From Oscillospiraceae bacterium (GTDB lineage: Bacteria; Bacillota; Clostridia; Saccharofermentanales; Saccharofermentanaceae): 64,000 nucleotides of DNA. The position numbers and the translations under genes were made by a program. Of the stretch, positions 18,486-30,687 are shown piece after piece (position 1 is the first letter of the stretch; each line of letters begins with the position of its first letter). The notes under the pieces were generated by a model. That model made no database searches. It was not told the DNA's origin and saw only the letters and a list, made by a program, of their open reading frames with translations. The stretch is taken from assembly GCA_015069215.1 (NCBI GenBank), contig SVJC01000001.1:25896-89895 (forward strand), written 5' to 3'.

Positions 18486-19676
18486 TTATTCCGCGAAAAC
18501 GTGCTGGCGCTTGCCGTTTACAAGGTCACGCCAAAACGGTGACATGTTTCTTAAATATGTAACTACTTCAGTAACGGCATCGATCAGATAATCAACATCC
18601 GCTTCTGTTATATCTTCACCGAGTGAGATCCTCAGTGACCCGTGAGCAACCTCGTGAGGTCTTCCGATCGCAAGGAGCACATGGCTCGGATCAAGCGAGC
18701 CGGAAGTGCACGCGCTTCCTGAAGATGCGCATATTCCCTTGTCATCGAGCAATAGCAGGAGTGACTCCCCTTCAATTCCTTCGAAGCAGAAATTGACATT
18801 GCTGGGGAGACGGTTTGTTCTGTCTCCGTTCAGTTCACCGTAGGGGATCTTGTCCAATCCTTCAATAAGGCGGTCTCTGAGCTTTATAAGCTTTTCTGCG
18901 TTCTTGTCGAGGTTTGCGGATGCTTCCTCCAATGCCGCAGCCATCCCCATGATCGCCGGGATATTCTCTGTACCTGCCCTCTTGCCTCTTTCCTGTGCTC
19001 CGCCGTTTATGACGTTTTCGAGCAGGATCCCGCGCTTTGCGTAAAGAACACCGATACCCTTGGGGCCGTGGAACTTGTGAGCCGAGAGCGAGAGCATGTC
19101 AATGTTCTGTTCTTTAACGTTTATATGTAAGTGACCTGCAGCCTGTACTGCATCAGTGTGGAACAGGACCTGCTTTTCCCTGCAGACTTTTCCTATCTCG
19201 GCTATCGGCTGGATCGTTCCTATCTCGTTATTTGCAAACATGATGGTTACAAGGCAGGTATCCTCGCGGATCGCGTCAGCGACCTGTTCTGCGGTTATGA
19301 CACCGTTCTTGTGAACGTCAAGAAGAGTGATCTCAAAGCCCTGCTTCTTGAGCTTTTCGAGCGTATGAAGAACTGCGTGATGCTCGAAAGCCGTTGAGAT
19401 GATGTGTTTCTTGCCCTTCTTCTCGCCCAGTCTGGCAGCTGAGAAGATCGCCTGGTTGTCAGCTTCGCTTCCGCCTGACGTGAAGGTTATCTCTCTGGGT
19501 TCACATCCTAATACAGAAGCGATCCTTTCCCTGGCATTCTCAAGAGCCTCTTTTGCCTCCTGTCCAAAAGAATAAAGACTTGAAGGATTACCATATATTT
19601 CATCCATATATGGAAGCATTGCATCAATGGCCGTACGGCTCATCTTTGTCGTTGCCGCATTGTCAGCGTATATCAT
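18486..19676 (-). CDS. iscS: Cysteine desulfurase IscS/NifS
   Basis: [34 protein letters not shown] and [10 protein letters not shown]. Confidence 0.95.
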
Positions 19677-19734
19677 TATTTCCTCCTCATCAGATCTCTC
19701 TATATATGTAAAGTATCTGATTAATTTTACTATT

Positions 19735-19755
19735 TACCTACCATTTCAGTAGGTA
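19735..19755. promoter_or_regulatory. Palindromic operator 1 (candidate Rrf2 site) at the iscS promoter
   Basis: Perfect TACCTAC-N7-GTAGGTA just downstream of the minus-strand promoter TTGACA(19789-19784)-17-CATATT(19766-19761). Confidence 0.65.
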
Positions 19756-19812
19756 CGAATAATATGAACCATGAGGCCCGTAATGTCAATGGAAAATTTT
19801 TAAAATCCGTGC

Positions 19813-19861
19813 TTGACAACAAATATGCACTCGTGTATATTACCTACTAACCGAGTGGGTT
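19813..19861 (+). promoter_or_regulatory. sigma-A promoter of leader-metY-cysK with overlapping operator 2
   Basis: TTGACA (19813-19818), 17 nt, TATATT (19836-19841), then TACCTAC-N7-GTGGGTT (19841-19861). Confidence 0.75.
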
Positions 19862-19890
19862 ATAGTGTTTTCAGGAAAGGAGGAGCCCCA

Positions 19891-20001
19891 ATGTTAGCAG
19901 CAATTCGCAATTCCATGTGCATGTGTATGATGCCTTGTTGGCGCACTGGGAATACCGAGTGCTTCTCTTGTCATATGGACGACCTGAGCATGCGAATGTG
20001 A
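19891..20001 (+). CDS. Met/Cys-rich leader peptide (36 aa)
   Basis: Very strong RBS AGGAAAGGAGG. Sequence MLAAIRNSMCMCMMPCWRTGNTECFSCHMDDLSMRM contains 8 Met and 5 Cys. It lies directly upstream of metY-cysK. Confidence 0.8.
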   Translation: MLAAIRNSMCMCMMPCWRTGNTECFSCHMDDLSMRM

Positions 20002-20028
20002 TACAGGATACGAAAATAAGATTATGGG

Positions 20029-20058
20029 AAGGGAGCGCTAAGGAAGGCTCCTTTTTTT
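20029..20058 (+). terminator. Attenuator terminator between leader peptide and metY
   Basis: AAGGGAGC-loop-GCTCCTTT followed by a T tract, 80 nt before the metY ATG. Confidence 0.75.
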
Positions 20059-20138
20059 ATTCAAAGATCACAACTTCCTTATCACCGTAAAACGGAAAAC
20101 AAAATCAAGATTTCATTTATCTAAAAGGAGATAACATT

Positions 20139-21425
20139 ATGAGCAACAAAAATTATAAATTCGAAACCCTTCAGCTTCACGTAGGCCAGGAACAGCCGGA
20201 TCCCGCAAGTGACGCAAGAGCAGTACCGATCTACGCAACAACATCTTACGTATTCCGTAATTCAGCACACGCTGAAGCACGTTTCGGACTTGCTGACGCA
20301 GGCAACATCTACGGCAGACTTACAAACTCCACACAGGGTGTTTTCGAAGACAGGATCGCAGCTCTCGAAGGCGGCGTAGCAGGTCTTGCAGTAGCATCAG
20401 GCGCAGCAGCGATCACATATGTAATCGAAGCTCTCGCAGTTAAGGGCGAGCACATCGTAGCACAGAAGACCATCTACGGCGGTTCCGAGAACCTCCTTGC
20501 ACACACACTTCCTCTTTATGGCATCGAGACAACATTCGTCAACATCCATGACCTTGAAGAAGTAAAAGCAGCCATCAGACCCAACACAAAGGCTCTCTAC
20601 ATCGAGACATTGGGCAACCCTTCTTCTGACATCCCGGATATCGAAGCACTCGCCAAGATCGCTCACGAAGCAGGCATCCCGCTCGTTATCGACAATACTT
20701 TCGGTACTCCTTACCTCATCAGACCTATCGAGTACGGTGCAGATATCGTAGTTCATTCCGCTACAAAGTTCATCGGCGGTCACGGCACGACATTGGGCGG
20801 CGTTATCGTTGATTCCGGTAAGTTCGACTGGGCTAAGTCAGGCAAGTATCCCTGGATCTCCGAACCCAACCCCAGCTATCACGGAGTTAAGTTCACAGAG
20901 GCAGCAGGCCCTGCAGCATTCGCAGTTTACATCAGAGCCATCCTGCTCCGTGACACCGGTTCTTCCATCTCGCCTTTCGCGGCATTCCTGCTCCTCCAGG
21001 GCACAGAGACACTTTCTCTCCGCGTAGAGCGTCACATCGAGAATACAAATAAGGTTCTTGTATACCTTAAGAATCATCCGAAGGTTGAGAAGGTCTTCCA
21101 CCCTGCACTCGAAGATCACCCCGATCACGAAGTATACAAGAAGTACTTCCCCAACGGCGGCGGCTCCATCTTCACATTCAACGTTAAGGGCGGAAAGAAG
21201 GAAGCATTCGATTTCATCGATCACCTCGAGATCTTCTCACTCCTCGCCAACGTAGCAGACGTTAAGAGCCTTGTAATCCACCCTGCAAGCACAACACACT
21301 CACAGCTTTCCGAAGAAGAGCTCAACGATGTTGGTATCTACCAGAACACGATCCGTCTCTCCATCGGAACAGAGCACATCGATGACATCATCGCTGACCT
21401 CGAAAAGGGTTTTGCAGCCATCTGA
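20139..21425 (+). CDS. metY: O-acetylhomoserine aminocarboxypropyltransferase / sulfhydrylase
   Basis: FETLQLHVGQE, PIY.TTSYVF, NIYGRL.N, VHSATKFIGGHG, LANVADVKSLVIHPASTTHSQL and IRLSIG.E. Confidence 0.93.
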   Translation: MSNKNYKFETLQLHVGQEQPDPASDARAVPIYATTSYVFRNSAHAEARFGLADAGNIYGRLTNSTQGVFEDRIAALEGGVAGLAVASGAAAITYVIEALAVKGEHIVAQKTIYGGSENLLAHTLPLYGIETTFVNIHDLEEVKAAIRPNTKALYIETLGNPSSDIPDIEALAKIAHEAGIPLVIDNTFGTPYLIRPIEYGADIVVHSATKFIGGHGTTLGGVIVDSGKFDWAKSGKYPWISEPNPSYHGVKFTEAAGPAAFAVYIRAILLRDTGSSISPFAAFLLLQGTETLSLRVERHIENTNKVLVYLKNHPKVEKVFHPALEDHPDHEVYKKYFPNGGGSIFTFNVKGGKKEAFDFIDHLEIFSLLANVADVKSLVIHPASTTHSQLSEEELNDVGIYQNTIRLSIGTEHIDDIIADLEKGFAAI

Positions 21426-21481
21426 ACATAATGGAAAATAACTGATATTATTAGTAAGAAAGAAATTGAAGGAGAATCACC

Positions 21482-22414
21482 ATGACTAAGATCTACACGT
21501 CAGCCGATCAGCTTATCGGAAAGACACCGCTTCTTGAACTCACACACGTTGAAAAGGAATTGGGCCTTGAGGCAAAGCTCGTTGCAAAGCTTGAGTACTT
21601 CAATCCCGCAGGAAGCGTTAAGGACCGTATTGCCAAGGCTATCATCGAGGACGCTGAGGCATCCGGAAGACTTAAGGAAGGCAGCGTCATCATCGAGCCT
21701 ACAAGCGGCAACACCGGTATCGGTCTTGCTTCCGTAGCTGCAGCTAAGGGTTACCGTTTGATCATCACAATGCCAGAGACGATGAGCGTTGAGAGAAGAC
21801 AGCTCATCAAAGCTTACGGTGCAGAGCTCGTTCTCACAGAAGGCGCTAAGGGCATGAAGGGTGCCATCGCAAAGGCCGAGGAGCTCCAGAAAGAGATCCC
21901 GAACAGCATCATTGCCGGCCAGTTCATCAACCCTGCAAATCCTAAGGCACACAGAGAAACGACAGGACCCGAGATCTGGGAAGACACAGACGGCGAAGTT
22001 GATATCTTCGTTGCAGGCGTAGGCACAGGCGGAACAGTCACAGGTGTCGGTGAATTCCTCAAGTCGAAGAAATCATCCGTAAAGGTCGTCGCAGTCGAGC
22101 CCGCTGACTCTCCCGTTTTGAGTAAGGGCACTGCAGGTGCACATAAGATCCAGGGTATCGGTGCCGGCTTCGTACCTGAAGTCCTCAACACAGGCGTTTA
22201 TGACGAAGTCATCCCCGTTACAAACGATGATGCATTCGCAACAGGCAAGCTCTTAGGTCATAGTGAAGGCGTACTTGTAGGTATCTCTTCCGGTGCAGCT
22301 CTCTGGGCAGCCATCGAGCTCGCTAAACGTCCCGAGAACAAGGGCAAGACGATCGTAGCGCTTCTCCCTGATACAGGCGACCGTTACCTCTCCACTCCTC
22401 TTTTCCAGGAATAA
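21482..22414 (+). CDS. cysK: Cysteine synthase A
   Basis: [45 protein letters not shown] and GISSGA. Confidence 0.95.
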
Positions 22415-22441
22415 ACCAGAAGCCAATTGGATTTCCAACAT

Positions 22442-22480
22442 AAAAGGGCCCTTGAAGCAGAAGCTTCAGGGGTCCTTTTC
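22442..22480 (+). terminator. Terminator after cysK (probably bidirectional)
   Basis: AAAAGGGCCCTTGAAGC-AGAA-GCTTCAGGGGTCCTTTT. Confidence 0.8.
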
Positions 22481-22489
22481 AGTTACGGT

Positions 22490-22700
22490 TTATCCTTCCC
22501 GCCTGTAGCTGCCGGGCGTCATTCCCGTTGTCTTGGCGAAATGCCGGTCTTACCTGGTTCATCAGCGGATTGTTCGCTCTCATCAGATACATCGTAAAGA
22601 CGAGAAGCGCCGGCTTCCTTGCACTTGCCTCTTATGGCAGGACCAGTGAATTAAAGGGCAAGGCAAAGGTTACCGCGATCACCGAAAAGGCCTCTTAATA
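22490..22700 (-). pseudogene. Degenerate remnant ending in an AraC-type C-terminus
   Basis: 22546-22490 translates as RHFAKTTGMTPGSYRREG*, the AraC F.K..G.TP..YR signature. The upstream hydrophobic stretch is in another frame and contains a stop. Confidence 0.5.
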
Positions 22701-22740
22701 CTACTACCGAACACATCTCCCCTAGATATACCCATCCCTC

Positions 22741-22773
22741 AAATAAGCACTTTCTTCGCGGAAGTGCTTATTT
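22741..22773. terminator. Perfect 12-bp inverted repeat insulating the kinase locus
   Basis: AAATAAGCACTT-tcttcgcgg-AAGTGCTTATTT. Confidence 0.55.
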
Positions 22774-22774
22774 A

Positions 22775-22950
22775 TTAAATGTCTATTAATTCTGTTAAAT
22801 TTGAGTTTTCTTTCCCCAAACAGGCACTCAAAAAGATTAGTATTAGTGTATATTCTGGCATGCTGCGAGAAGAAACCACATCCAGCCGGCTTTCTGCCAA
22901 ATAACATAGACGAAAGACAGTGTCACACAAGAAATAGGAAGGTGTTAGGA
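22775..22950 (+). promoter_or_regulatory. Conserved 5' leader of kinase 1 (copy 1)
   Basis: The ungapped 71-nt core (22775-22845) matches 26985-27055 at 59/71 by manual count. Stem TTTGAGT/ACTCAAA. Confidence 0.65.
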
Positions 22951-24771
22951 ATGGCAAACGAGAATAAAAGATTTCCGGATATCAGCGTAATCTGGCCAAA
23001 TTGGAAGATAACGGAAATTATCGGAAGGGGATCATTCGGTACCGTATATAAAGCTGTTCACGAAACCGCTGTAGTAGCTGGCGATGCCGCAGCTATAAAA
23101 GTAATCAGTATCCCAAATGAAGACAGCGAAACAGAAAACCGTAAGCTGGACGGGGCTTCCGAGGACGAGATCCGTAAAGAATACGAAGAGATCCGTGATG
23201 AATATGTTAACGAGATCAAATTCATGATGGATTTCAGAGACACCCCTAATGTCGTCAGGATCGAAGACTATGAGGTCGTTCCCAAAAAAGACAGCATCGG
23301 CTGGATCATATATATAAGGATGGAGTTACTGACCGATCTGAGGGTATGGGCAAACGAGCATGGTATTAACGCACATGATGTGATCCGGATCGGAAAAGAT
23401 ATCTGCCGTGCATTGATTACATGCGAAAAAAGGCATCTTTTGCACCGTGATATCAAGCAAAGCAATATCATGGTAAATACTACAACGAACACTTTTAAAC
23501 TTTCTGATTTCGGTATTGCAAAATACAACAATGCCCTTAATTGGAGCCTGTCTTTTAAAGGCACTCCCGATTACATGGCACCGGAAGTCTGTCAATTCAG
23601 TGAATATGACTCGCGGATAGATATCTATTCACTTGGTATGGTCTTGTATTATTACATGAACAAGAAACGTGGCCCGTTCCTTGTTCTAGACAGACTGCCT
23701 ACGGCTAATGAAAGAGAGAATGCCAACCAGAGGAGATATCAGGGCGAGCCTCTCCCTGCTCCTGCAGAAGCAGCACCTGCATTGTCCGAAGTAATACTCC
23801 ATGCCTGTGCGTACGATCCGAATGACCGTTTTCAGTCAGCTAAGGAATTCTACGATGCCCTGTGCCAGGTTGAAGCCGGAACATACAAGGTCGGCACTTA
23901 TGTTGCGTCAAATACAAATCTGCAGGTCGAGAATAAACTTCCGCAAGATGATTATGATTCCGGCACGGTAATGGTCCGACGTGCACCCGGCAGTTCTGTG
24001 CCGGAAATGTCTCAGGCACCTGTTTTTGTCCCGGCACAACCTGTTTCAAACGTGCAAAAGCCAATTACTGAAATGAAGAAAAAGAGATCTTCATTACCAG
24101 TCGTTATCATCGTGATTTTATTATTGATATCTGCTGCATGTGCAGTAGCGGTTTATCTGTTGCAAAACCATAAACCCATCAAAGAAAACAACAGCGAACG
24201 TATTACCGAAGAATCGGAATCTACCACGATAACAACTACAACTGCTACAACAACTACTACTGTTACACAGCCTGAAACAACAAGCCAGGCCACAACCGCC
24301 GAAAGCACTTATGAAACTTCTGGATCTGCACCTTTAGTTAATAAATTCTATGCATTCCCTGGCTGGTATGAGTTGGATAAGACTGTAGTAAAAAACAACA
24401 TGATTGCTGAAACTAGAAGCGATTATTGGTGGGAAAACGCTGACGGCACTAAAAATCCATATATATGGTTATATGTTTTCGATAAAGATGGTCACGCAAT
24501 TTGTGAATACTCTTGGCTTTGTTGTTCTAATGAGGCAAATGCAAAGGCAATGTATAACACTATCATGGGATATTCTTCCGATGAAGAAAAAAAAGATGTC
24601 TATTTAGACGGTAAATACATAGCGTTTAACAAACGCTACGCTGAATTAGATACTATTTTGAAAGTTGCTGGCTATAGTTCTTATGATCAAATTACCATGA
24701 AAGATGTTATTAGATATTTAGATGGATCTTTATGGGGGAAAGAACCTTCTGGCGAGATAGTATACAAATAA
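22951..24771 (+). CDS. Hanks-type Ser/Thr protein kinase with single TM, Thr-rich stalk and extracellular domain
   Basis: GRGSFGTVY, AIK, HRDIKQSN, DFG and GTPDYMAPE; TM PVVIIVILLLISAACAVAVYLL; TTTTATTTTT stalk. ATG 22951 follows an AGGAAGG RBS and aligns with the paralog start. Confidence 0.93.
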   Translation: MANENKRFPDISVIWPNWKITEIIGRGSFGTVYKAVHETAVVAGDAAAIKVISIPNEDSETENRKLDGASEDEIRKEYEEIRDEYVNEIKFMMDFRDTPNVVRIEDYEVVPKKDSIGWIIYIRMELLTDLRVWANEHGINAHDVIRIGKDICRALITCEKRHLLHRDIKQSNIMVNTTTNTFKLSDFGIAKYNNALNWSLSFKGTPDYMAPEVCQFSEYDSRIDIYSLGMVLYYYMNKKRGPFLVLDRLPTANERENANQRRYQGEPLPAPAEAAPALSEVILHACAYDPNDRFQSAKEFYDALCQVEAGTYKVGTYVASNTNLQVENKLPQDDYDSGTVMVRRAPGSSVPEMSQAPVFVPAQPVSNVQKPITEMKKKRSSLPVVIIVILLLISAACAVAVYLLQNHKPIKENNSERITEESESTTITTTTATTTTTVTQPETTSQATTAESTYETSGSAPLVNKFYAFPGWYELDKTVVKNNMIAETRSDYWWENADGTKNPYIWLYVFDKDGHAICEYSWLCCSNEANAKAMYNTIMGYSSDEEKKDVYLDGKYIAFNKRYAELDTILKVAGYSSYDQITMKDVIRYLDGSLWGKEPSGEIVYK

Positions 24772-24806
24772 GCCAAAGCTATAATTTTGTATAAGGAGAC
24801 GTAATT

Positions 24807-26393
24807 ATGCCTATCTGTACTTGGTGCGGTGAAAACAACGAAAACGAAGGACCTATCTGCGTAAAATGCGGAAATCCCCTGCCGGGTTCCCAGCCGTCAG
24901 TTCCGGATAATCAGAATGTTCTTGCCTGCCCAAAGTGCGGAACAAAATACGAAGCCGGTGATCAGTTCTGTACAAGATGCGGTAACACTTTAGATCTCCC
25001 CGTTCCGCCTGAAAGTAAACCTGATCCTGCACCGGCAGATCCCGCGCCGCTTGCTTGTCCAAAATGTGGTAAGGGTTACGAAAAGGGAGATAAGTTTTGC
25101 ACGAAATGCGGTACTTCTTTCGTTCAGCCTGCCAAACCGGTTCAGAACGTTTTTGTGCCCGCACCTGTACCTTCTCCGGCTCCTACCCGGGAACCCGAAC
25201 AGAAAAATATATGTCCGGAGTGCGGCGAGATCAATCCTAAGTCGTTGCGTTTTTGCGCAAATTGCGGCAGCTCGCTTGCCTCATCTGACAGTGTGTTTCA
25301 GAAAACTCAAAATCCGTTCAATAATCTCATAGTCACTCCGGCTCAGGCTCCGCGTCAGGCACAGACATCCGGACAGAAGAACATCTGCCCGACTTGCGGC
25401 GAGATCAATTCAACGAACAGTCATTACTGTGTAAAATGCGGCGGCACGCTCAATCCTGTTAACAAATCAGTAAATGCAACTCAGGTAGCCAGACGTCCGA
25501 CTCAGGCAGGCGTTGATCCTCTGACATTGCTGACGCATTATGACGGCCAGGAAAAGACCTTCAGTCTGGAAGGACACGAATTTACGATCTCAAAAGAAAT
25601 GGACGCATATGTCTATTACAGAAAGATGTTTAAGCAGGCCGCCAAGTTCATGGTTCAGCAAGTAATGCCTGAATATAATGCTCAGGTCCACAATTTGGAC
25701 GATTACTTTGCTAAATTTCCGATCATGTATGTACACTACAGAAGATTTTTGATCGATCAGGCTGTAAAGATCCTGATAAGCTACGATATCTACGACATCT
25801 CTCGCGAAGAATTCGAAGAAGAACTTGGCAACGAATTCAGCAAATGCAACGTAAAATACCAGGAACTCATCGAAGCATTCAATCAAACGATTGAGGATAA
25901 CCAGGCACGCGCAGCAATGCGTGGAAGTCTGTTGCCGACAGTCTTTTTCAGCGGCGGCGTTTTGGGATTTGCCAAGGCAATCGCTTATAATGCCGCTTCA
26001 ACAGCCATAGTTGAAGCAAGCATCAGAAATGCTAATGTAACCCGCGCGCAAAGAAATGAGCTTTTCAGAAGAATAACGCTCTCCGAATTGTTCGAAGATG
26101 TATTTCATGATTATTGGGATGTCCACTACTCGCTGACATACAGATTGCATGAAAGCGGTGCTGATGTATGGTATCCGAGCGTGGAAGGCAACACAAAGGC
26201 TCAGGGCCTTATGAGAAATCTCAACAGCAATCTTATTCCGGAAGACAGGATAGTCACCGTTCTTCTTAAGATATTTGAAACCCGTCCCATGCAGACCGGT
26301 TGTCTTGATTACGTGGTCAGGAAGTTTGGCCGTACCCCGGAAGTTAAGGCGATATGTGATTATTACGGATATGAAGCCGGAATCGGCAACTGA
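24807..26393 (+). CDS. Protein with five zinc-ribbon modules and an unknown helical C-terminal domain
   Basis: Five CxxCG-x(8-9)-CxxCG units separated by P/Q-rich linkers. The C-terminus contains FFSGGVLGFAKAIAYNAAS. Confidence 0.88.
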   Translation: MPICTWCGENNENEGPICVKCGNPLPGSQPSVPDNQNVLACPKCGTKYEAGDQFCTRCGNTLDLPVPPESKPDPAPADPAPLACPKCGKGYEKGDKFCTKCGTSFVQPAKPVQNVFVPAPVPSPAPTREPEQKNICPECGEINPKSLRFCANCGSSLASSDSVFQKTQNPFNNLIVTPAQAPRQAQTSGQKNICPTCGEINSTNSHYCVKCGGTLNPVNKSVNATQVARRPTQAGVDPLTLLTHYDGQEKTFSLEGHEFTISKEMDAYVYYRKMFKQAAKFMVQQVMPEYNAQVHNLDDYFAKFPIMYVHYRRFLIDQAVKILISYDIYDISREEFEEELGNEFSKCNVKYQELIEAFNQTIEDNQARAAMRGSLLPTVFFSGGVLGFAKAIAYNAASTAIVEASIRNANVTRAQRNELFRRITLSELFEDVFHDYWDVHYSLTYRLHESGADVWYPSVEGNTKAQGLMRNLNSNLIPEDRIVTVLLKIFETRPMQTGCLDYVVRKFGRTPEVKAICDYYGYEAGIGN

Positions 26394-26410
26394 TCAAAGG
26401 AAGTATTGAT

Positions 26411-26809
26411 ATGGATAACCGTTACTATCAGCAACCGCAATACACCCCTACTTACCAGCCACCGGATTACGGCCAGTTCGGAAATCCTACAAACCAGGTC
26501 TACAACAATCCTATGACCATGGCTGCCAGCGCTGCGGGTGACAGAAATACCCCTGAACTCAAAACGGCTCACATCTTTGCAATCATAAGCATGATATGCG
26601 GTATCGCCGGATTGGTACTTGCATTATATTACGGTCTTGGCGCCTTCATCGGCGGCGGACCGGGACTTGTATTTGCGATCATTTCGGGCAAACTCGGTAA
26701 TGCCAGCGGAATGAGAAAGACAGGATTGATCCTTTCGATCATATCGCTTGCATTAAGTGCCTTCGTATTTGCGCTGACTTATCTAATTTCGTCTGCATTC
26801 AGCTTTTAA
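26411..26809 (+). CDS. Small membrane protein with Q/P/Y/N-rich N-terminus (DUF4190-like architecture)
   Basis: YYQQPQYTPTYQPP tail, then AIISMICGIAGL...GLVFAIIS...GLILSIISL helices. Confidence 0.8.
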   Translation: MDNRYYQQPQYTPTYQPPDYGQFGNPTNQVYNNPMTMAASAAGDRNTPELKTAHIFAIISMICGIAGLVLALYYGLGAFIGGGPGLVFAIISGKLGNASGMRKTGLILSIISLALSAFVFALTYLISSAFSF

Positions 26810-26845
26810 TGATCTAATCATAAGCAACTGTTTGGAGGGCGTAAT

Positions 26846-26962
26846 ATAATCTATTGCAGAAAATGTGGCAAAAAGCTTGCTAATGATGCCATTGTCATTC
26901 TTTGTATCATTGCTCTTGTCTGTTTTGGCTGCGCGTTATTCATTTATCTCACATTCAGATAA
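26846..26962 (+). pseudogene. Decayed zinc-ribbon + TM mini-gene (ATA in place of ATG)
   Basis: GGAGG RBS (26834-26838), then ATA ATC TAT TGC... = IIYCRKCGKKLANDAIVILCIIALVCFGCALFIYLTFR*. It parallels MIYCNNCGKPLADG of 28884 but lacks the second CxxC. Confidence 0.65.
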
Positions 26963-26984
26963 AACCGGTTCCGCCCCAAAAATA

Positions 26985-27170
26985 TTAATTGTCTATTAAA
27001 TCTGTAAAATTTGGGTGATACCTCTCCAAACAGGCACCCAAAAAGATTAGAATTAACATACGTAACACCGATATTCCGGTACGATGCGAGGGGAAAACGC
27101 AAAGCGCCGGTTTTTCGCCGGATTACATTGGCAAAGACGGTGTTGCGCACGTTACAGGAAGGTGTAGAGA
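26985..27170 (+). promoter_or_regulatory. Conserved 5' leader of kinase 2 (copy 2)
   Basis: Homologous to 22775-22950. Stem TTTGGGTG/CACCCAAA shows a compensatory A-T to G-C change relative to copy 1. Confidence 0.65.
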
Positions 27171-28856
27171 ATGGCAGGCGAGAACAAAGATTTCCCGGAT
27201 ATCAGCGTAATCTGGCCAAACTGGAAGATTACGGAAAAGATCGGGGCAGGTTCATTCGGATTCGTATATAAAGCTGTGCATAAGACCGCAGTTATCGCCG
27301 GTGATGCCGTTGCCATTAAAGTCATCAACATTCCGAAAGAAGAAAGCGAAATAGCAAACCGTAAACTTGACGGAGCTACCGACGAAGAGATCCGCAGAGA
27401 ATTTGACGAGATCCGCACTGAATATGTCAATGAGATCCGTTTTATGATGGATTTCAGGGATTCTCCCAATGTTGCAAGGATCGAAGACTACGAAGTCGTT
27501 CCAAAAAAAGACAGTATCGGCTGGATCATATATATCCGCATGGAATTAATGACCGACTTAAGGTCATGGATAAACAACAACGGCTTTAATGAGCACATAG
27601 CGGTCAAGATCGGGAAAGACATCTGCGATGCTTTAAAGATATGCGAAAGCAAAAATGTATTGCACCGTGATATCAAGCCGAGCAATATCCTTGTAAACAC
27701 TTCTACGAACACGTTTAAGCTTTCTGATTTCGGTGTTGCCAAATACAATGACAGCCTAAGCGGAAGTCTGTCATCTAAAGGCACCCCTGATTTCATGGCG
27801 CCGGAAGTTGCCAGATTCCTCCATTACGATTCACGTATCGATACCTATTCCCTGGGCCTGGTCCTGTATTATTTCATGAACCGCAGGCATGGCCCTTTTC
27901 TCGATCTGAACAGGATGCCCACACCGACAGAAATGGAAGAGGCAAAACAGCGCAGGTTCAACGGCGAACTGATCCCGCCTCCAATTGATGCAGGACCTGC
28001 GTTGGCTGAAGTAATACTTCATGCCTGCGCCTATGACCCGAACGACCGTTTCCAGTCAGCTCAGGAATTCTACGACGCTCTGTGTAAGGTCGAAGCAAGA
28101 ACATACAGGATCGGGACTTATGTCCCGAAGAGACCTGCCGCAAATGCTATTCCTCAGCAGGAATATAATCCCGGGACGATCAGAGTCCGCCGCGCACAAG
28201 GCGCACCCGTACAGGGGCCGGCACAGGTCCCTACCTGGACTCCTGCCCAGACACCGGTTCCCGCGCCCGCACAGGTGCCTACATGGACTCCTGCCCGCGC
28301 TCCTGCACAGGTACCGACCTGGACACCGCCTCCGGTCCCTGCTCAAAACAAGCCTGTAAAGCCTGCAAAAAAGCCCAATAAGGCCGTTCTGCCGGTAGTG
28401 ATCGCGATAATCGCCGTTTTATTGGTTGCCGGATCGATCACATTGGCACTTGTTCTGGCTTCACAGTACAAAAAATCCGTCATGGAAAGCAGCGGTAACT
28501 CGACCGTAAGGACGACGTCTGTAAGATCGACAAAACGTACCGAATCCCAAGAAGAGGATACTGAACCGGATGCCATCGATAAGATCTATGAGATAGACTC
28601 CAGGTTCTGGGTTATAGTATTGTGCGCATCTTTCGTCGGCTTGGGCATAGTAATATTGACAGCTGTCGCTGTGACAAATAAGAAAAACAAGAAGCCGGTC
28701 CAAAAGAACGGCCCGAACAACAAGGCAAAACCTGCACAAAGCAAGCCGGCTCCTGCCCCGGCAGCCTCTAATCAGGTCATATTCTGCAAATACTGCGGGA
28801 ACAAGCAGGACGCATCATCTGCCTTTTGCGATAAGTGCGGAAAACAAATAAAATAG
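27171..28856 (+). CDS. Hanks-type Ser/Thr kinase with Pro-rich repeats, two TMs and C-terminal zinc ribbon
   Basis: GAGSFGFVY, HRDIKPSN, DFG and GTPDFMAPE; PAQVPTWT x3; two hydrophobic helices; FCKYCGNKQDASSAFCDKCG. Confidence 0.93.
   Translation: MAGENKDFPDISVIWPNWKITEKIGAGSFGFVYKAVHKTAVIAGDAVAIKVINIPKEESEIANRKLDGATDEEIRREFDEIRTEYVNEIRFMMDFRDSPNVARIEDYEVVPKKDSIGWIIYIRMELMTDLRSWINNNGFNEHIAVKIGKDICDALKICESKNVLHRDIKPSNILVNTSTNTFKLSDFGVAKYNDSLSGSLSSKGTPDFMAPEVARFLHYDSRIDTYSLGLVLYYFMNRRHGPFLDLNRMPTPTEMEEAKQRRFNGELIPPPIDAGPALAEVILHACAYDPNDRFQSAQEFYDALCKVEARTYRIGTYVPKRPAANAIPQQEYNPGTIRVRRAQGAPVQGPAQVPTWTPAQTPVPAPAQVPTWTPARAPAQVPTWTPPPVPAQNKPVKPAKKPNKAVLPVVIAIIAVLLVAGSITLALVLASQYKKSVMESSGNSTVRTTSVRSTKRTESQEEDTEPDAIDKIYEIDSRFWVIVLCASFVGLGIVILTAVAVTNKKNKKPVQKNGPNNKAKPAQSKPAPAPAASNQVIFCKYCGNKQDASSAFCDKCGKQIK
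28221..28330 (+). repeat. Three coding repeats GCACAGGTNCCNACNTGGAC (AQVPTWT)
   Basis: Copies start at 28221, 28269 and 28305. Confidence 0.85.
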
Positions 28857-28883
28857 ACATAATCTTTTTTTGGGGATCTTTAA

Positions 28884-29603
28884 ATGATATATTGCAATAA
28901 TTGCGGCAAGCCGCTCGCTGACGGTTCAATGTTCTGTGATGGCTGCGGAAGTCCGGTAGCGGGCCCGCAAAATGCGCCCATGGCTCCGAAGAGATCCAAA
29001 AAGGGACCGGTGATCGCCATCATCGCAAGCGCTGTCGGTCTGTCGCTCCTGGGCGGAGGTATCTTTGCGGCCATCAAGTTTGCAGGCAAAGCAAAGGCTC
29101 CCAAGGAAACTGAAGATGAGACCTATTCTTATACCGAAAGTACCGATGACACAGACGAAACCACTGAAACAACAGATGATATCTTAACCACGGACGAGGA
29201 AACGAGCGACACCACAAGCGAAACCACGACTGAAGAAACTGTCGAAAGTTCTATCGGAGAGACCGGCGATGGCGAGACCAAAACACTTGAAAAAGTCATC
29301 TCTCCTGAAGAGCTCCAGAGAACTATCGATAACATGAAGGATAGCGATACCTTCAGGAACAACTATAAAGATGCGACTATCGAAGTACGTGGAAACACCA
29401 TTACTTACAAGTATTACTACAACAAGGAAATGACCGAGGACCAGCGTGCACAGGTGAAGCAAAACCTCGAAGACAGCGGCCTTCGTGAACAGATCGACGG
29501 CATGAAGGATTCATTCGAAAAAATTTACGGGGTCCGTCCTGAAAGGATCGCTTTCGAATACTATACTGCTGACGACATCCTTATAGCCTGCATAGACGCT
29601 TAA
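28884..29603 (+). CDS. Zinc-ribbon + TM + acidic T/E/D stalk + extracellular domain protein
   Basis: MIYCNNCG...FCDGCG, TM PVIAIIASAVGLSLLGGGIFAAI and TDETTETTDD stalk. Confidence 0.88.
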   Translation: MIYCNNCGKPLADGSMFCDGCGSPVAGPQNAPMAPKRSKKGPVIAIIASAVGLSLLGGGIFAAIKFAGKAKAPKETEDETYSYTESTDDTDETTETTDDILTTDEETSDTTSETTTEETVESSIGETGDGETKTLEKVISPEELQRTIDNMKDSDTFRNNYKDATIEVRGNTITYKYYYNKEMTEDQRAQVKQNLEDSGLREQIDGMKDSFEKIYGVRPERIAFEYYTADDILIACIDA

Positions 29604-29652
29604 GGACCTTACCGTTCTTAATATTGCTGTTAACTGTTTCGGCGGTATCCCA

Positions 29653-30687
29653 TCAGGCAAGCTTCGTAACGTCAGTGGCGTAACACCATCTGCCGCCGGT
29701 AAAGTTTCCGAAGACGTATTTCGCAGACGCAGACTCGCACATTATGAGCATCTTGCCGTCAACGAAGACTATCTCCTCCGACATCGGCGGAGCCTTGAAT
29801 CCGCCTTCCAGCGTACTCTTGTACAAGACAAAGAGTTCTGCATTTCCTGCCTTGGGATCAAAGACTCCCGCACTCTTTCCGAAAACATCGTAGCAGGCGA
29901 TCGTGGACTTTTCTGTTCCGTAAGACATCGATATCCACATCTTGTTGTCGTGTATTACAACGCCCTGAGCCTTATCCGGCAATGAATAGACCTCTGAAGC
30001 GACGGTCTCCAGGCCGAACTTTGAAGTGTCCGAATCGCTTACCTCGTAGCTGAACATGAGAGCACGGTTCGTCTCGCCTGAAGGGCAATCGTATCTGTGC
30101 GAATCAGGCGTACGGAAGTTGGGTTCCCTGTAGTACTCGCCGACATAGAACTTGCCGTCAGAGAAGCACATGAAATCGGCACGGAGCTCGTAGTCACCGT
30201 ACTTTGTGTCAAAGGTTCCGAGGGTCTTTACTATCTGCGCGTTGCCTGCGGACAATACGTCAGAAAGCTTGAAAACATATACAAACGGATCCTCGTTGCC
30301 GCCTACATAGAGATAGTCTCCGTTGGCTGCGAGGCCACCCGCGTGGATCGCCATCCCTTTGCCGTCCTGATCTCCGAGAAGAACATAACCTCTTGTCTTC
30401 CCTGTTGCTTTTTCGATCATGTAGACACGTGAAGGCGTGCCGTTCTTCTGATAGCCTCCGACAAGATAGAGTCCCTCTGATTCAAGGTAATCAAGGCCCT
30501 GGGGGATCATTGTCTCCGAAAGTCCCGGTATCACGAACGCCTTTTCGGATGCCCGGTAATAAGATCTCACGGGGACCCTGAAAAAGAGCCTCGCTCCCGT
30601 AAGCACCAAAACTGCCAGCGCCACTAAACAAAAGGCGAAAGTTAAAAGCCCTTTCTTCAGTTTTGAAACGGACTTCTTCTCTGTCAT
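29653..30687 (-). CDS. Hypothetical membrane-anchored exported protein (possible beta-propeller)
   Basis: N-terminal TM and beta-rich repeats (QGLDY, HAGGLA, AQGVV, PPMSEEI). Start overlaps the mgtA stop region. Confidence 0.7.
   Translation of the reverse strand: MTEKKSVSKLKKGLLTFAFCLVALAVLVLTGARLFFRVPVRSYYRASEKAFVIPGLSETMIPQGLDYLESEGLYLVGGYQKNGTPSRVYMIEKATGKTRGYVLLGDQDGKGMAIHAGGLAANGDYLYVGGNEDPFVYVFKLSDVLSAGNAQIVKTLGTFDTKYGDYELRADFMCFSDGKFYVGEYYREPNFRTPDSHRYDCPSGETNRALMFSYEVSDSDTSKFGLETVASEVYSLPDKAQGVVIHDNKMWISMSYGTEKSTIACYDVFGKSAGVFDPKAGNAELFVLYKSTLEGGFKAPPMSEEIVFVDGKMLIMCESASAKYVFGNFTGGRWCYATDVTKLA

What the first reader, a model, noticed from the sequence alone, without database searches (positions are those of the whole stretch)
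22775..22950. Shared structured leader in front of both kinases, with a compensatory base-pair change
Seen: a 71-nt ungapped core, 59/71 identical to 26985-27055. Stem TTTGAGT/ACTCAAA in copy 1 becomes TTTGGGTG/CACCCAAA in copy 2, so both partners change. An inner CTT/AGG versus CCT/AGG helix is valid as a G-U pair only on the plus strand. The loop CCAAAC and the flanks GTCTATTAA and AAAAAGATTAG are invariant. After an 11-nt indel the rest of the leader still aligns up to the AGGAAGGTGT RBS, and copy 2 has a long-range GTAACACCG/CGGTGTTGC stem. Inference: an undescribed cis-regulatory RNA or protein-binding element specific to this kinase family.
Basis: partly seen in the sequence, partly recalled or inferred. 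Interest (0 to 1): 0.65.

Follow-up and report, generated by a model that had tools for sequence, protein, structure and literature searches.

The report
Conserved promoter and leader of kinase genes
Two neighbouring protein-kinase genes of an uncultured gut Clostridia bacterium share a selectively conserved ~180-base upstream region that is most likely their promoter plus a 5' untranslated leader; the proposed RNA hairpin exists in the sequence but is not statistically supported and may lie partly outside the mature mRNA.

Summary
Bases 22775-22845 and 26985-27055 are 59/71 identical without gaps, and the leaders align up to the AGGAAGGTGT ribosome-binding site. TTTGAGT/ACTCAAA becomes TTTGGGTG/CACCCAAA. 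Both genes are Hanks-type Ser/Thr kinases, each followed by a Zn-ribbon membrane protein.

The similarity is not neutral. Four-fold degenerate sites of the two kinase genes are 43% identical, against 69% for the leader and 83% for the core.

The element is confined to one narrow lineage: 6 distinct sequences, about 3 lineages. It has no Rfam match and is absent from 79 loci of more distant kinase relatives.

Evidence for an RNA hairpin is weak:
- One compensated pair, one U-G and one C·A break.
- A column-shuffle test gives p about 0.05.
- The copy 1 hairpin is only -4.4 kcal/mol, and the copy 1 leader folds no better than shuffles.
- The inner CTT/CCT-AGG helix is not conserved.

A terminator ends at 22770. 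In one metatranscriptome the kinase-1 RNA contig starts at 22822, inside the proposed loop.

Best reading: the AT-rich 5' block is the promoter, possibly with an operator, and about 145 nt of 5' UTR follows that may occlude the start codon. A processed RNA hairpin remains possible. This is a new, lineage-specific cis-regulatory region of modest interest.

The parts
22745..22777 (+). Intrinsic terminator hairpin AAGCACTTTCTTCGCGGAAGTGCTT followed by ATTTATT. It is the terminator of a MatE gene, of which only a 3' fragment (22528-22698) remains in the window.
   Evidence: Read from the sequence. The same hairpin follows an intact MatE gene in L091. The X6 RNA contig from upstream stops at 22746.
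22772..22801 (+). Putative sigma-A-type promoter of kinase 1: -35 TTATTA 22772-22777, TG 22793-22794, -10 TAAATT 22796-22801. The predicted TSS is about 22808. Copy 2 equivalent: 26982-27011.
   Evidence: My own hexamer scan. This is the only candidate present at the same alignment columns in all six leader sequences and compatible with the RNA boundary. It must lie between the terminator end (22770) and the RNA contig start (22822). It is an inference and has not been mapped.
22780..22789 (+). Invariant TGTCTATTAA inside the putative promoter spacer. It is a possible operator. Copy 2: 26990-26999.
   Evidence: Invariant in all six distinct leaders. The exact 10-mer occurs nowhere else in the window. 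Counting one-mismatch variants there are 7 hits against 3.4 expected by chance, and the other five carry a mismatch.
22800..22832 (+). Proposed hairpin P1: arms TTTGAGT 22800-22806 and ACTCAAA 22826-22832, with a 19-nt loop holding a pyrimidine tract and the invariant CCAAACAG (22816-22823). Copy 2: 27010-27042.
   Evidence: One compensated pair, one U-G and one C.A. Energy -4.4 kcal/mol in copy 1 and -11.9 in copy 2. Shuffle p about 0.05.
22822..22825 (.). Position where RNA contigs of metatranscriptome X6 begin or end. A 790-nt contig 98% identical to kinase 1 starts at 22822. An L001-like contig ends at the equivalent of 22823-22825 and runs into Illumina adapter.
22833..22950 (+). Transcribed 5' UTR of kinase 1 with candidate helices: P3 CTGGC 22855-22859 / GCCGG 22885-22889; P4 TGCG 22864-22867 / CACA 22877-22880; P5 GCCA 22896-22899 / TGGC 22952-22955; P6 TAACAT 22902-22907 / GTGTTA 22942-22947. 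SD AGGAAGG is at 22936-22942.
   Evidence: RNAalifold and pair counts. Coordinates. Covered by the X6 RNA contig.
26985..27170 (+). Leader copy 2, with the same parts: P1 27010-27016 / 27036-27042; the 11-nt insertion 27061-27071, which forms the 5' strand of the long-range stem 27062-27070 / 27138-27146; P3 27076-27080 / 27106-27110; P4 27085-27088 / 27098-27101; SD 27156-27162.
   Evidence: Whole-leader z-score -2.26.
22951..24771 (+). Kinase 1: Hanks-type Ser/Thr protein kinase, 606 aa, with a predicted transmembrane segment after the kinase domain.
   Evidence: Pfam Pkinase 7.8e-38.
27171..28856 (+). Kinase 2: a paralog of kinase 1, 561 aa.
   Evidence: Pfam Pkinase 1.6e-38. 57% identity to kinase 1 overall and 72% over the kinase domain.

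Best explanation
The two regions are paralogous copies of the control region of a kinase / Zn-ribbon-protein module that was duplicated in tandem. Both copies have been kept under purifying selection.

The AT-rich 5' block starts right after a terminator. It is most likely the promoter: TTATTA, then 17-18 bp, then TAAATT or TAAAAT with an upstream TG. The invariant TGTCTATTAA lies in the spacer and is a possible operator. Transcription would start near 22808 in copy 1 and near 27017 in copy 2. On this reading the 5' arm of the proposed hairpin lies between the -10 element and the start site and is not part of the mature mRNA.

The remaining ~145 nt is a true 5' UTR. Its conserved segments (YCUCCAAACAGGCACYCAAAAAGAUUAG, a CCGGY/GCCGG stem enclosing a UGCG/CGCA hairpin, and GCCR..UUACAU pairing with GUGUW..AUGGC) probably modulate translation by occluding the Shine-Dalgarno and start-codon region.

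Shown: conservation beyond neutral, the restricted phylogenetic range, the terminator context and the RNA coverage boundary. Inferred: the promoter assignment, the exact TSS, the operator and the translational occlusion.
For: - Four-fold-site identity between kinase 1 and 2 is 40/92 = 43%. The leader is 128/186 = 69% identical, the core 59/71 = 83% and the 5' block 22/25.
- Conservation also holds against other species: c1 vs L001 gives 139/188 for the leader against 54% at four-fold sites.
- Homology among four different upstream contexts starts about 15-20 nt before 22775, close to the putative -35 (22772-22777); spacing further upstream is not conserved. The contexts are PALP-terminator, MatE-terminator, MatE fragment and Zn-ribbon remnant.
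- The terminator ends at 22770. The X6 RNA contigs cover 22549-22746 and 22822-23611 at about 86-104x, with nothing from that strain in between. The promoter must therefore sit in 22771-22822.
- TTATTA-17/18-TA(A/T)A(A/T)T is the only promoter-like pair conserved in register in all six leaders and compatible with that boundary. Variants at the -10 keep TAnnnT.
- X6 coverage is RNA-like: 350-780x on the Cys/Met genes, about 100x on kinase 1 and 0 over 25010-30349.
- Downstream helices keep pairing through G-U transitions and 3 compensated pairs.
- MFE folds of copy 1 and copy 2 pair the 5'-proximal conserved segment with the SD/AUG region.
Against: - No TSS mapping exists. Contig ends are only a proxy, and Logan contigs carry no strand information.
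- The -35 is poor in copy 2 (ATATTA), and the generic scanner did not report a + strand promoter here at its threshold.
- An invariant 10-mer in a promoter spacer is unusual and needs an extra factor.
- The model leaves the conserved complementarity of TTTGRGT / RCYCAAA, with its compensated pair, to chance (p about 0.05) or to an unknown DNA-level role.
- It does not explain why an L001-like RNA contig that includes the whole 5' block ends sharply, with adapter, at the same spot in the loop.
- The copy 1 UTR is not more stable than shuffles, and covariation in the UTR is not significant.
Confidence: 0.5

Rival explanations
1. The hairpin is a real RNA element of the leader. Transcription starts upstream of 22800, from a weak promoter in the 5' block or by read-through. 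P1 forms and presents the invariant CCAAACAG loop. The RNA is then bound or cleaved there by an endoribonuclease or by itself, giving the mature kinase mRNA that begins near 22822.
For: - The stem is kept in all six sequences, with one compensated pair and a U-G that works only on the + strand. The shuffle test gives p about 0.05.
- The copy 2 hairpin is stable: -11.9 kcal/mol, z -3.2.
- In X6, an RNA contig from an L001-like strain contains the 5' block and 5' arm and ends sharply, with adapter, in the loop. The contig of the window-like strain begins within 1-3 nt of the same place. A shared boundary in two strains is unlikely by chance.
Against: - The two contig ends overlap by 2-4 nt, so a single cut does not produce both.
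- The strand of the contigs is unknown, so the sharp end could be an antisense 5' end.
- The copy 1 hairpin is only -4.4 kcal/mol with a 19-nt loop.
- L091 has a C.A in the stem.
- The outer AT-rich extension and the inner 3-bp helix are broken in several sequences.
- No good promoter lies upstream of the stem.
- No known ribozyme or RNA family matches.
Confidence: 0.27
2. The inverted repeat TTTGRGT-N19-RCYCAAA, together with TGTCTATTAA, is a DNA operator. A transcription factor binds across the -10 and start-site region and represses or activates the kinase promoter. No RNA structure is involved.
For: - The repeat brackets the predicted start site.
- The 5' block is the most conserved segment between lineages, 88-96% identical.
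- Conservation begins at the promoter, and the 5' arm appears to be untranscribed in X6.
- The stem is equally good on either strand, as expected of a DNA palindrome.
Against: - The half-sites are 26 bp apart centre to centre, about 2.5 helical turns. That is awkward for a dimer.
- A matching change in both half-sites of one copy but not the other, within a single genome, is not what one shared regulator predicts.
- No regulator gene is conserved next to the locus. The AraC-family gene in L091 is not conserved elsewhere.
- No further copies of the motifs occur in the window.
Confidence: 0.15
3. The similarity is only a remnant of the duplication, or of gene conversion between the two copies, and has no function.
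For: - The kinases are tandem paralogs. Relatives show signs of recombination within the leader: L005, L090 and L091 have copy-1-type upstream sequence joined to a copy-2-type leader.
Against: - Synonymous sites of the adjacent genes are close to saturation (43% identical), while the core is 83% identical.
- The same core is 83-86% identical to L001 from another species, where gene conversion cannot act.
- Sequence upstream of the block is unrelated between contexts.
Confidence: 0.05

Closest known systems
Bacterial sigma-70/sigma-A promoter with an overlapping operator
   Same: It is an AT-rich block directly after a terminator. TTATTA and TAAATT/TAAAAT hexamers lie 17-18 bp apart, with TG upstream of the -10. 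Conservation starts close to the -35. An RNA coverage boundary lies about 14 nt downstream of the predicted start.
   Different: The hexamers are weak, especially the -35 of copy 2. The spacer holds an invariant 10-mer. No regulator is known. The TSS has not been mapped.
RBS- or start-codon-sequestering 5' UTRs (translational riboregulators, RNA-thermometer-like leaders)
   Same: It is a long 5' UTR of about 145 nt. Conserved upstream segments can pair with GGUGU next to the SD and with AUGGC. Pairing is kept through G-U and a few compensated changes.
   Different: It has no match to ROSE, fourU or any Rfam cis-regulatory family. Stability is not above shuffles in two of three lineages. No ligand or signal is known.
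Orphan riboswitch-like or cis-regulatory RNA motifs found by comparative genomics (Weinberg/Breaker-type candidates in Rfam)
   Same: It is a conserved non-coding element always found 5' of one gene family, with a hairpin carrying a conserved loop.
   Different: Those motifs are defined by statistically supported covariation across many taxa. This one has about 3 lineages and non-significant covariation, and its 5' half may not be transcribed.
5'-UTR endonucleolytic processing sites (RNase Y / RNase III type maturation) and small self-cleaving ribozymes
   Same: RNA contigs of two strains end or begin at one spot in a conserved loop.
   Different: There is no ribozyme core and no Rfam hit. The two ends overlap by 2-4 nt. 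Strand and end chemistry are unknown.

Membership tests
Any Rfam 15 family (riboswitches, leaders, ribozymes, sRNAs) | Covariance-model match at or near the family's gathering score | tested here: not met
   cmscan of 20000-30000 on both strands at E<=10 gave three unrelated sub-threshold hits. None lay in 22775-22950 or 26985-27170.
Structured cis-regulatory RNA (generic, R-scape-type criterion) | Statistically significant covariation supporting the helices | tested here: not met
   There are 6 distinct sequences, about 3 lineages. P1 has one compensated pair. The column-shuffle frequency is 53/1000 for P1. Helices with 2 compensated pairs occur in 170/500 shuffles. The counts exceed their controls, but the structure was derived from the same sequences.
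Structured cis-regulatory RNA (generic) | Folding energy clearly below shuffled controls in all members | tested here: inconclusive
   Whole-leader z-scores: copy 1 +0.83, copy 2 -2.26, L001 -0.76. P1 alone: copy 1 z -0.74, copy 2 z -3.21.
Structured cis-regulatory RNA (generic) | The whole element is transcribed on the sense strand | tested here: inconclusive
   The X6 contig of the window-like strain starts at 22822, and the 5' block and 5' arm are not covered. An L001-like contig does cover them, but its strand is unknown.
Sigma-A (sigma-70-type) promoter | -35 and -10 hexamers at 16-18 bp spacing, conserved in position | tested here: inconclusive
   TTATTA-17/18-TAAATT/TAAAAT sits at the same columns in all six leaders. 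It scores only 7.5-8.5 on my scale, and the generic scanner did not list it.
Sigma-A (sigma-70-type) promoter | A mapped primary transcription start about 7 nt downstream of the -10 | not testable with these tools
   Only assembled RNA contigs are available. The boundary at 22822 is 14 nt downstream of the predicted start. No raw-read or dRNA-seq run is available.
Intrinsic terminator / transcription attenuator in the leader | GC-rich hairpin followed directly by a U-tract, conserved in homologs | tested here: not met
   No terminator-like site was reported in either leader. The U5 after GCCGG exists only in copy-2-type leaders. Copy 1 has UUUCU and L001 has GAUCUU.
Leader-peptide (uORF) attenuation | A conserved short ORF with an RBS in the leader | tested here: not met
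   The TTG-initiated frame is shifted by the 11-nt indel. The ATGs near alignment columns 97-104 lie in different columns and frames. They give uORFs of 14, 27 and 5 codons and have no SD (read).

The most novel reading that the evidence does not exclude
The conserved CCAAACAG loop flanked by the TTTGRGT/RCYCAAA stem is a new lineage-specific RNA processing element. It would be cleaved by a dedicated endoribonuclease or by itself, separating the kinase mRNA from upstream transcripts and setting kinase expression. The coincident RNA ends in two strains of one metatranscriptome would be its footprint.
Probability: 0.1. Interest if true: 0.65.

Novelty: new member of a known kind. Interest (0 to 1): 0.3.

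Why it matters
Bacterial Hanks-type kinases are usually described as constitutively co-transcribed signalling enzymes, and dedicated cis-regulation of their genes is rarely reported. Here a kinase / Zn-ribbon module of gut Clostridia carries a control region that has stayed 70-85% identical while synonymous sites have nearly saturated. It was kept through a tandem duplication and in several genomic contexts. That points to tight and probably signal-responsive control of kinase dosage.

If the leader acts as an RNA switch or processing site, it would be a new regulatory RNA class, though one with a very narrow distribution. If it is a promoter plus operator, it is an ordinary lineage-specific regulatory region. 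Either way the finding is currently limited by having only about three lineages and no cultured host.

Tried and rejected
- Rfam scan at a permissive threshold: nothing.
- Exact-pattern scan of GTDB species genomes for 5' block + loop: 0 hits.
- Scan of metagenome contigs for loop + 3' flank: 5 hits, all chance matches in unrelated contexts.
- Covariance model of the whole leader (R1) searched against 79 loci of kinase relatives of at most 49% identity from GTDB genomes: no hit. The element is not a feature of the wider kinase family.
- Leader-peptide idea: rejected, because the frames are not conserved.
- Sigma-54, ECF and sporulation-sigma consensus, and Spo0A, CodY and cre boxes, compared by eye: no convincing match. 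These comparisons rest on my own knowledge and are not a tool test.
- Alternative promoter TCCAAA-17-TAGAAT (predicted TSS about 22850): rejected, because the RNA contig starts upstream of it at 22822.
- Outer AT-rich helix (alignment columns 12-20 with 64-72): broken in 3 of 8 pairs, one of them in three sequences.
- Pyrimidine tract pairing with the P4-loop (TT/AA vs CC/GG): seen, but not significant.
- Calibrating contig ends against another promoter in X6 at 19650-20350: failed, because many strains fragment the contigs.
- Runs X34-X36: low depth and unknown type, so uninformative.
- Literature search for a kinase-associated RNA motif: nothing relevant.

Full report
OBSERVATION. The sequence is as described. 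With an offset of 4210 nt, 22775-22845 and 26985-27055 are 59/71 identical without gaps. The best 71-mer between one upstream region and shuffles of the other was 36. The alignment continues across an 11-nt indel, present in copy 2 at 27061-27071 and absent in copy 1, up to AGGAAGGTGT and the start codons at 22951 and 27171.

The stem arms are TTTGAGT 22800-22806 / ACTCAAA 22826-22832, and TTTGGGTG 27010-27017 / CACCCAAA 27035-27042. The copy 2 long-range stem GTAACACCG 27062 / CGGTGTTGC 27138 is present. Longer patterns from the core occur only at these two places in the window, with none expected by chance.

GENES AND CONTEXT. Both downstream ORFs are Hanks-type protein kinases: Pfam Pkinase 7.8e-38 and 1.6e-38. 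They are 57% identical overall and 72% identical over the kinase domain. Each is followed by a Zn-ribbon membrane protein, at 24807-26393 and 28884-29603. Upstream are Cys/Met-metabolism PLP enzymes at 20139-21425 and 21482-22414.

After the PALP gene comes its terminator at about 22446-22480. Next is a 56-codon ORF at 22528-22698 that is the C-terminal remnant of a MatE gene. That gene is intact in the relative L091. Then comes the MatE terminator hairpin at 22745-22770 with its T-tract, which runs straight into the conserved block.

Relatives carry a single kinase / Zn-ribbon module in different upstream contexts:
- L001-L004: PALP terminator plus about 35 nt.
- L091: MatE plus terminator.
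- L005, L090, L094: MatE fragment plus terminator.
- The window's copy 2: a Zn-ribbon ORF remnant ending 22 nt upstream.

Homology among these contexts begins about 15-20 nt before 22775.

NOT NEUTRAL. Four-fold degenerate sites of the two kinase domains are 40/92 = 43% identical. The leader is 128/186 = 69% identical, the core 83% and the first 25 nt 88%. Against L001, where four-fold identity is 54-61%, the leader is 74-76% identical and the core about 83-86%. Gene conversion inside one genome therefore cannot be the only cause. The middle of the leader (alignment columns 77-134) is close to the neutral level between copy 1 and the others, at 52-54%.

DISTRIBUTION.
- The protein database holds only two clusters above 70% identity to kinase 1. 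All others are 50% or less.
- An exact scan of 185,579 species genomes for 5' block + loop found nothing.
- A scan of metagenome contigs for loop + 3' flank found five chance matches.
- A covariance model of the leader (R1) hits only the window (twice), L001-L005 and L090-L094. It hits none of 79 loci encoding more distant members of the kinase family.
- Rfam has no match.

That leaves six distinct leader sequences, which amount to about three lineages: copy 1, L001-type and copy-2-type.

IS P1 AN RNA HAIRPIN? In its favour, the 7-bp stem is present in all six sequences. One pair switches A-U to G-C, and L001 has a U-G at the inner pair.

Several points count against it or leave it neutral:
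- L091 has C.A at that same inner pair.
It is broken in L001, L005 and L093.
- The AT-rich outer extension is broken in three of its eight pairs, one of them in three sequences.
- In 1000 column shuffles of the three-lineage alignment, a helix of at least 7 bp kept in all three arises 198 times. One with at least one compensated pair arises 53 times.
- Helices with two compensated pairs arise in 34% of shuffles. None of the covariation in the leader is therefore statistically significant.
- In energy terms, P1 is -4.4 kcal/mol (z -0.74) in copy 1 and -11.9 kcal/mol (z -3.2) in copy 2, and it is as good on the minus strand.
- Whole leaders give z +0.83 (copy 1), -2.26 (copy 2) and -0.76 (L001).

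TRANSCRIPT EVIDENCE. One bovine-gut metatranscriptome, X6, holds this organism. Its coverage of the window is uneven in an RNA-like way: 350-780x on 20204-22339, about 100x on kinase 1, zero over 25010-30349, and 27-150x on the ATPase gene.

A contig 99% identical to the window covers 22549-22746. A 790-nt contig 98% identical to the window covers exactly 22822-23611. Nothing from that strain covers 22747-22821. The abundant kinase-1 RNA therefore starts at, or a few nucleotides upstream of, 22822. That lies inside the proposed loop and downstream of the 5' arm.

Because a terminator ends at 22770, the promoter has to lie within 22771-22822. The only promoter-like hexamer pair that is in register in all six leaders and compatible with this boundary is TTATTA (22772-22777), 17-18 bp, then TAAATT/TAAAAT (22796-22801), with TG at 22793-22794. 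It predicts a start near 22808. The natural variants at the -10 keep TAnnnT. Loss of about 10-15 nt at RNA 5' ends in random-primed libraries would reconcile 22808 with 22822. That figure comes from my own knowledge and was not measured here.

A second candidate promoter, TCCAAA-17-TAGAAT, predicts a start near 22850 and is contradicted by the contig.

UNEXPLAINED. A second X6 contig (230 nt, depth 78) is L001-like, with five mismatches to either copy. It contains 160 nt of other upstream sequence plus the 5' block and 5' arm. It ends at the equivalent of 22823-22825 and then runs into Illumina adapter. That is a sharp molecular end at the same spot in a second strain.

It could be a processing site in read-through transcripts, or the 5' end of an antisense RNA. 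Contigs carry no strand information. The two ends overlap by 2-4 nt, which argues against one simple cut. This observation keeps the RNA-element reading alive.

DOWNSTREAM UTR. RNAalifold proposes three features:
- P3, CCGGY/GCCGG.
- P4, UGCG/CGCA, enclosed by P3. P4 has two compensated pairs in L001 and one mismatch in copy 1.
- GCCR..UUACAU pairing with GUGUW..AUGGC, which covers the start codon and the bases just 3' of the SD.

One-sided changes in these helices are all G-U compatible on the plus strand, but the structure was derived from the same sequences. The 10-bp long-range stem of copy 2 is kept in L001 and in the copy-2-type leaders. Its 5' strand is deleted in copy 1. MFE folds starting at the predicted TSS pair the 5'-proximal conserved segment with the SD in copy 1 (CUUUCC with GGAAGG), and with GGUGU/AUGG in copy 2. 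Translational occlusion is therefore a reasonable but unproven mechanism.

VERDICT. The finding is a real, selectively maintained, undescribed control region specific to a small kinase subfamily. The most likely anatomy is a promoter, possibly with an operator, followed by a 5' UTR of about 145 nt. The specific claim of a covariation-supported RNA hairpin is not established, and its 5' arm may not be in the mature mRNA.

Probabilities:
- Promoter plus UTR: about 0.5.
- RNA hairpin or processing element: about 0.27.
- DNA palindrome operator: about 0.15.
- Neutral remnant: about 0.05.

Interest is modest, because the distribution is narrow, the host is uncultured, and the element is an ordinary kind of feature unless the processing reading proves true.

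Noticed in passing
window 22951-26393 and 27171-29603: The kinase + Zn-ribbon membrane protein module is duplicated in tandem. The first partner (24807-26393) has four double-zinc-ribbon repeats. All relatives found (L001-L005, L090-L094) have one module only.
   Followed up: partly
window 22528-22698 (and L091 1118-2533): A 56-codon ORF is the C-terminal remnant of a MatE efflux gene that is intact upstream of the kinase in L091. It lies after the PALP terminator (about 22446-22480) and brings its own terminator (22745-22770).
   Followed up: partly
window 26850-26962: A short Zn-ribbon + transmembrane ORF (IYCRKCGKKLANDAIVILCIIALVCFGCALFIYLTFR*) has no obvious start codon and is probably a gene remnant. 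It ends 22 nt before leader copy 2, with no terminator in between.
   Followed up: no
L005 206-461, L090 980-1235, L091 2549-2804 vs window 22715-22960 and 26925-27180: Single-copy relatives combine copy-1-type upstream sequence (terminator; 83/100 identity to copy 1) with a copy-2-type leader and kinase. This suggests recombination within the conserved 5' block, or that this arrangement is ancestral to the duplication.
   Followed up: partly
window 22975-22995 and 27195-27215 (kinase codons 9-15): CCG GAT ATC AGC GTA ATC TGG is identical at every synonymous site in copy 1, copy 2 and L001, although synonymous sites elsewhere are about 50% identical. It could be chance or an extension of the constraint into the coding start.
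   Followed up: partly
window 22807-22815 with 22868-22876 and 22937-22942: The pyrimidine tract UUUCUUUCC is complementary both to the P4-loop GAGAAGAAA and to the SD GGAAGG. In L001 and copy 2 the tract is CCUCUCC and the loop GAGGGGAAAA, so TT/AA becomes CC/GG. This is not significant by shuffles.
   Followed up: partly
window 22822-22825 / 27032-27035, run X6: RNA contigs of two related strains begin or end within 1-3 nt of each other in the CCAAACAG loop, and one of them is joined to sequencing adapter. The strand and cause are unknown.
   Followed up: partly
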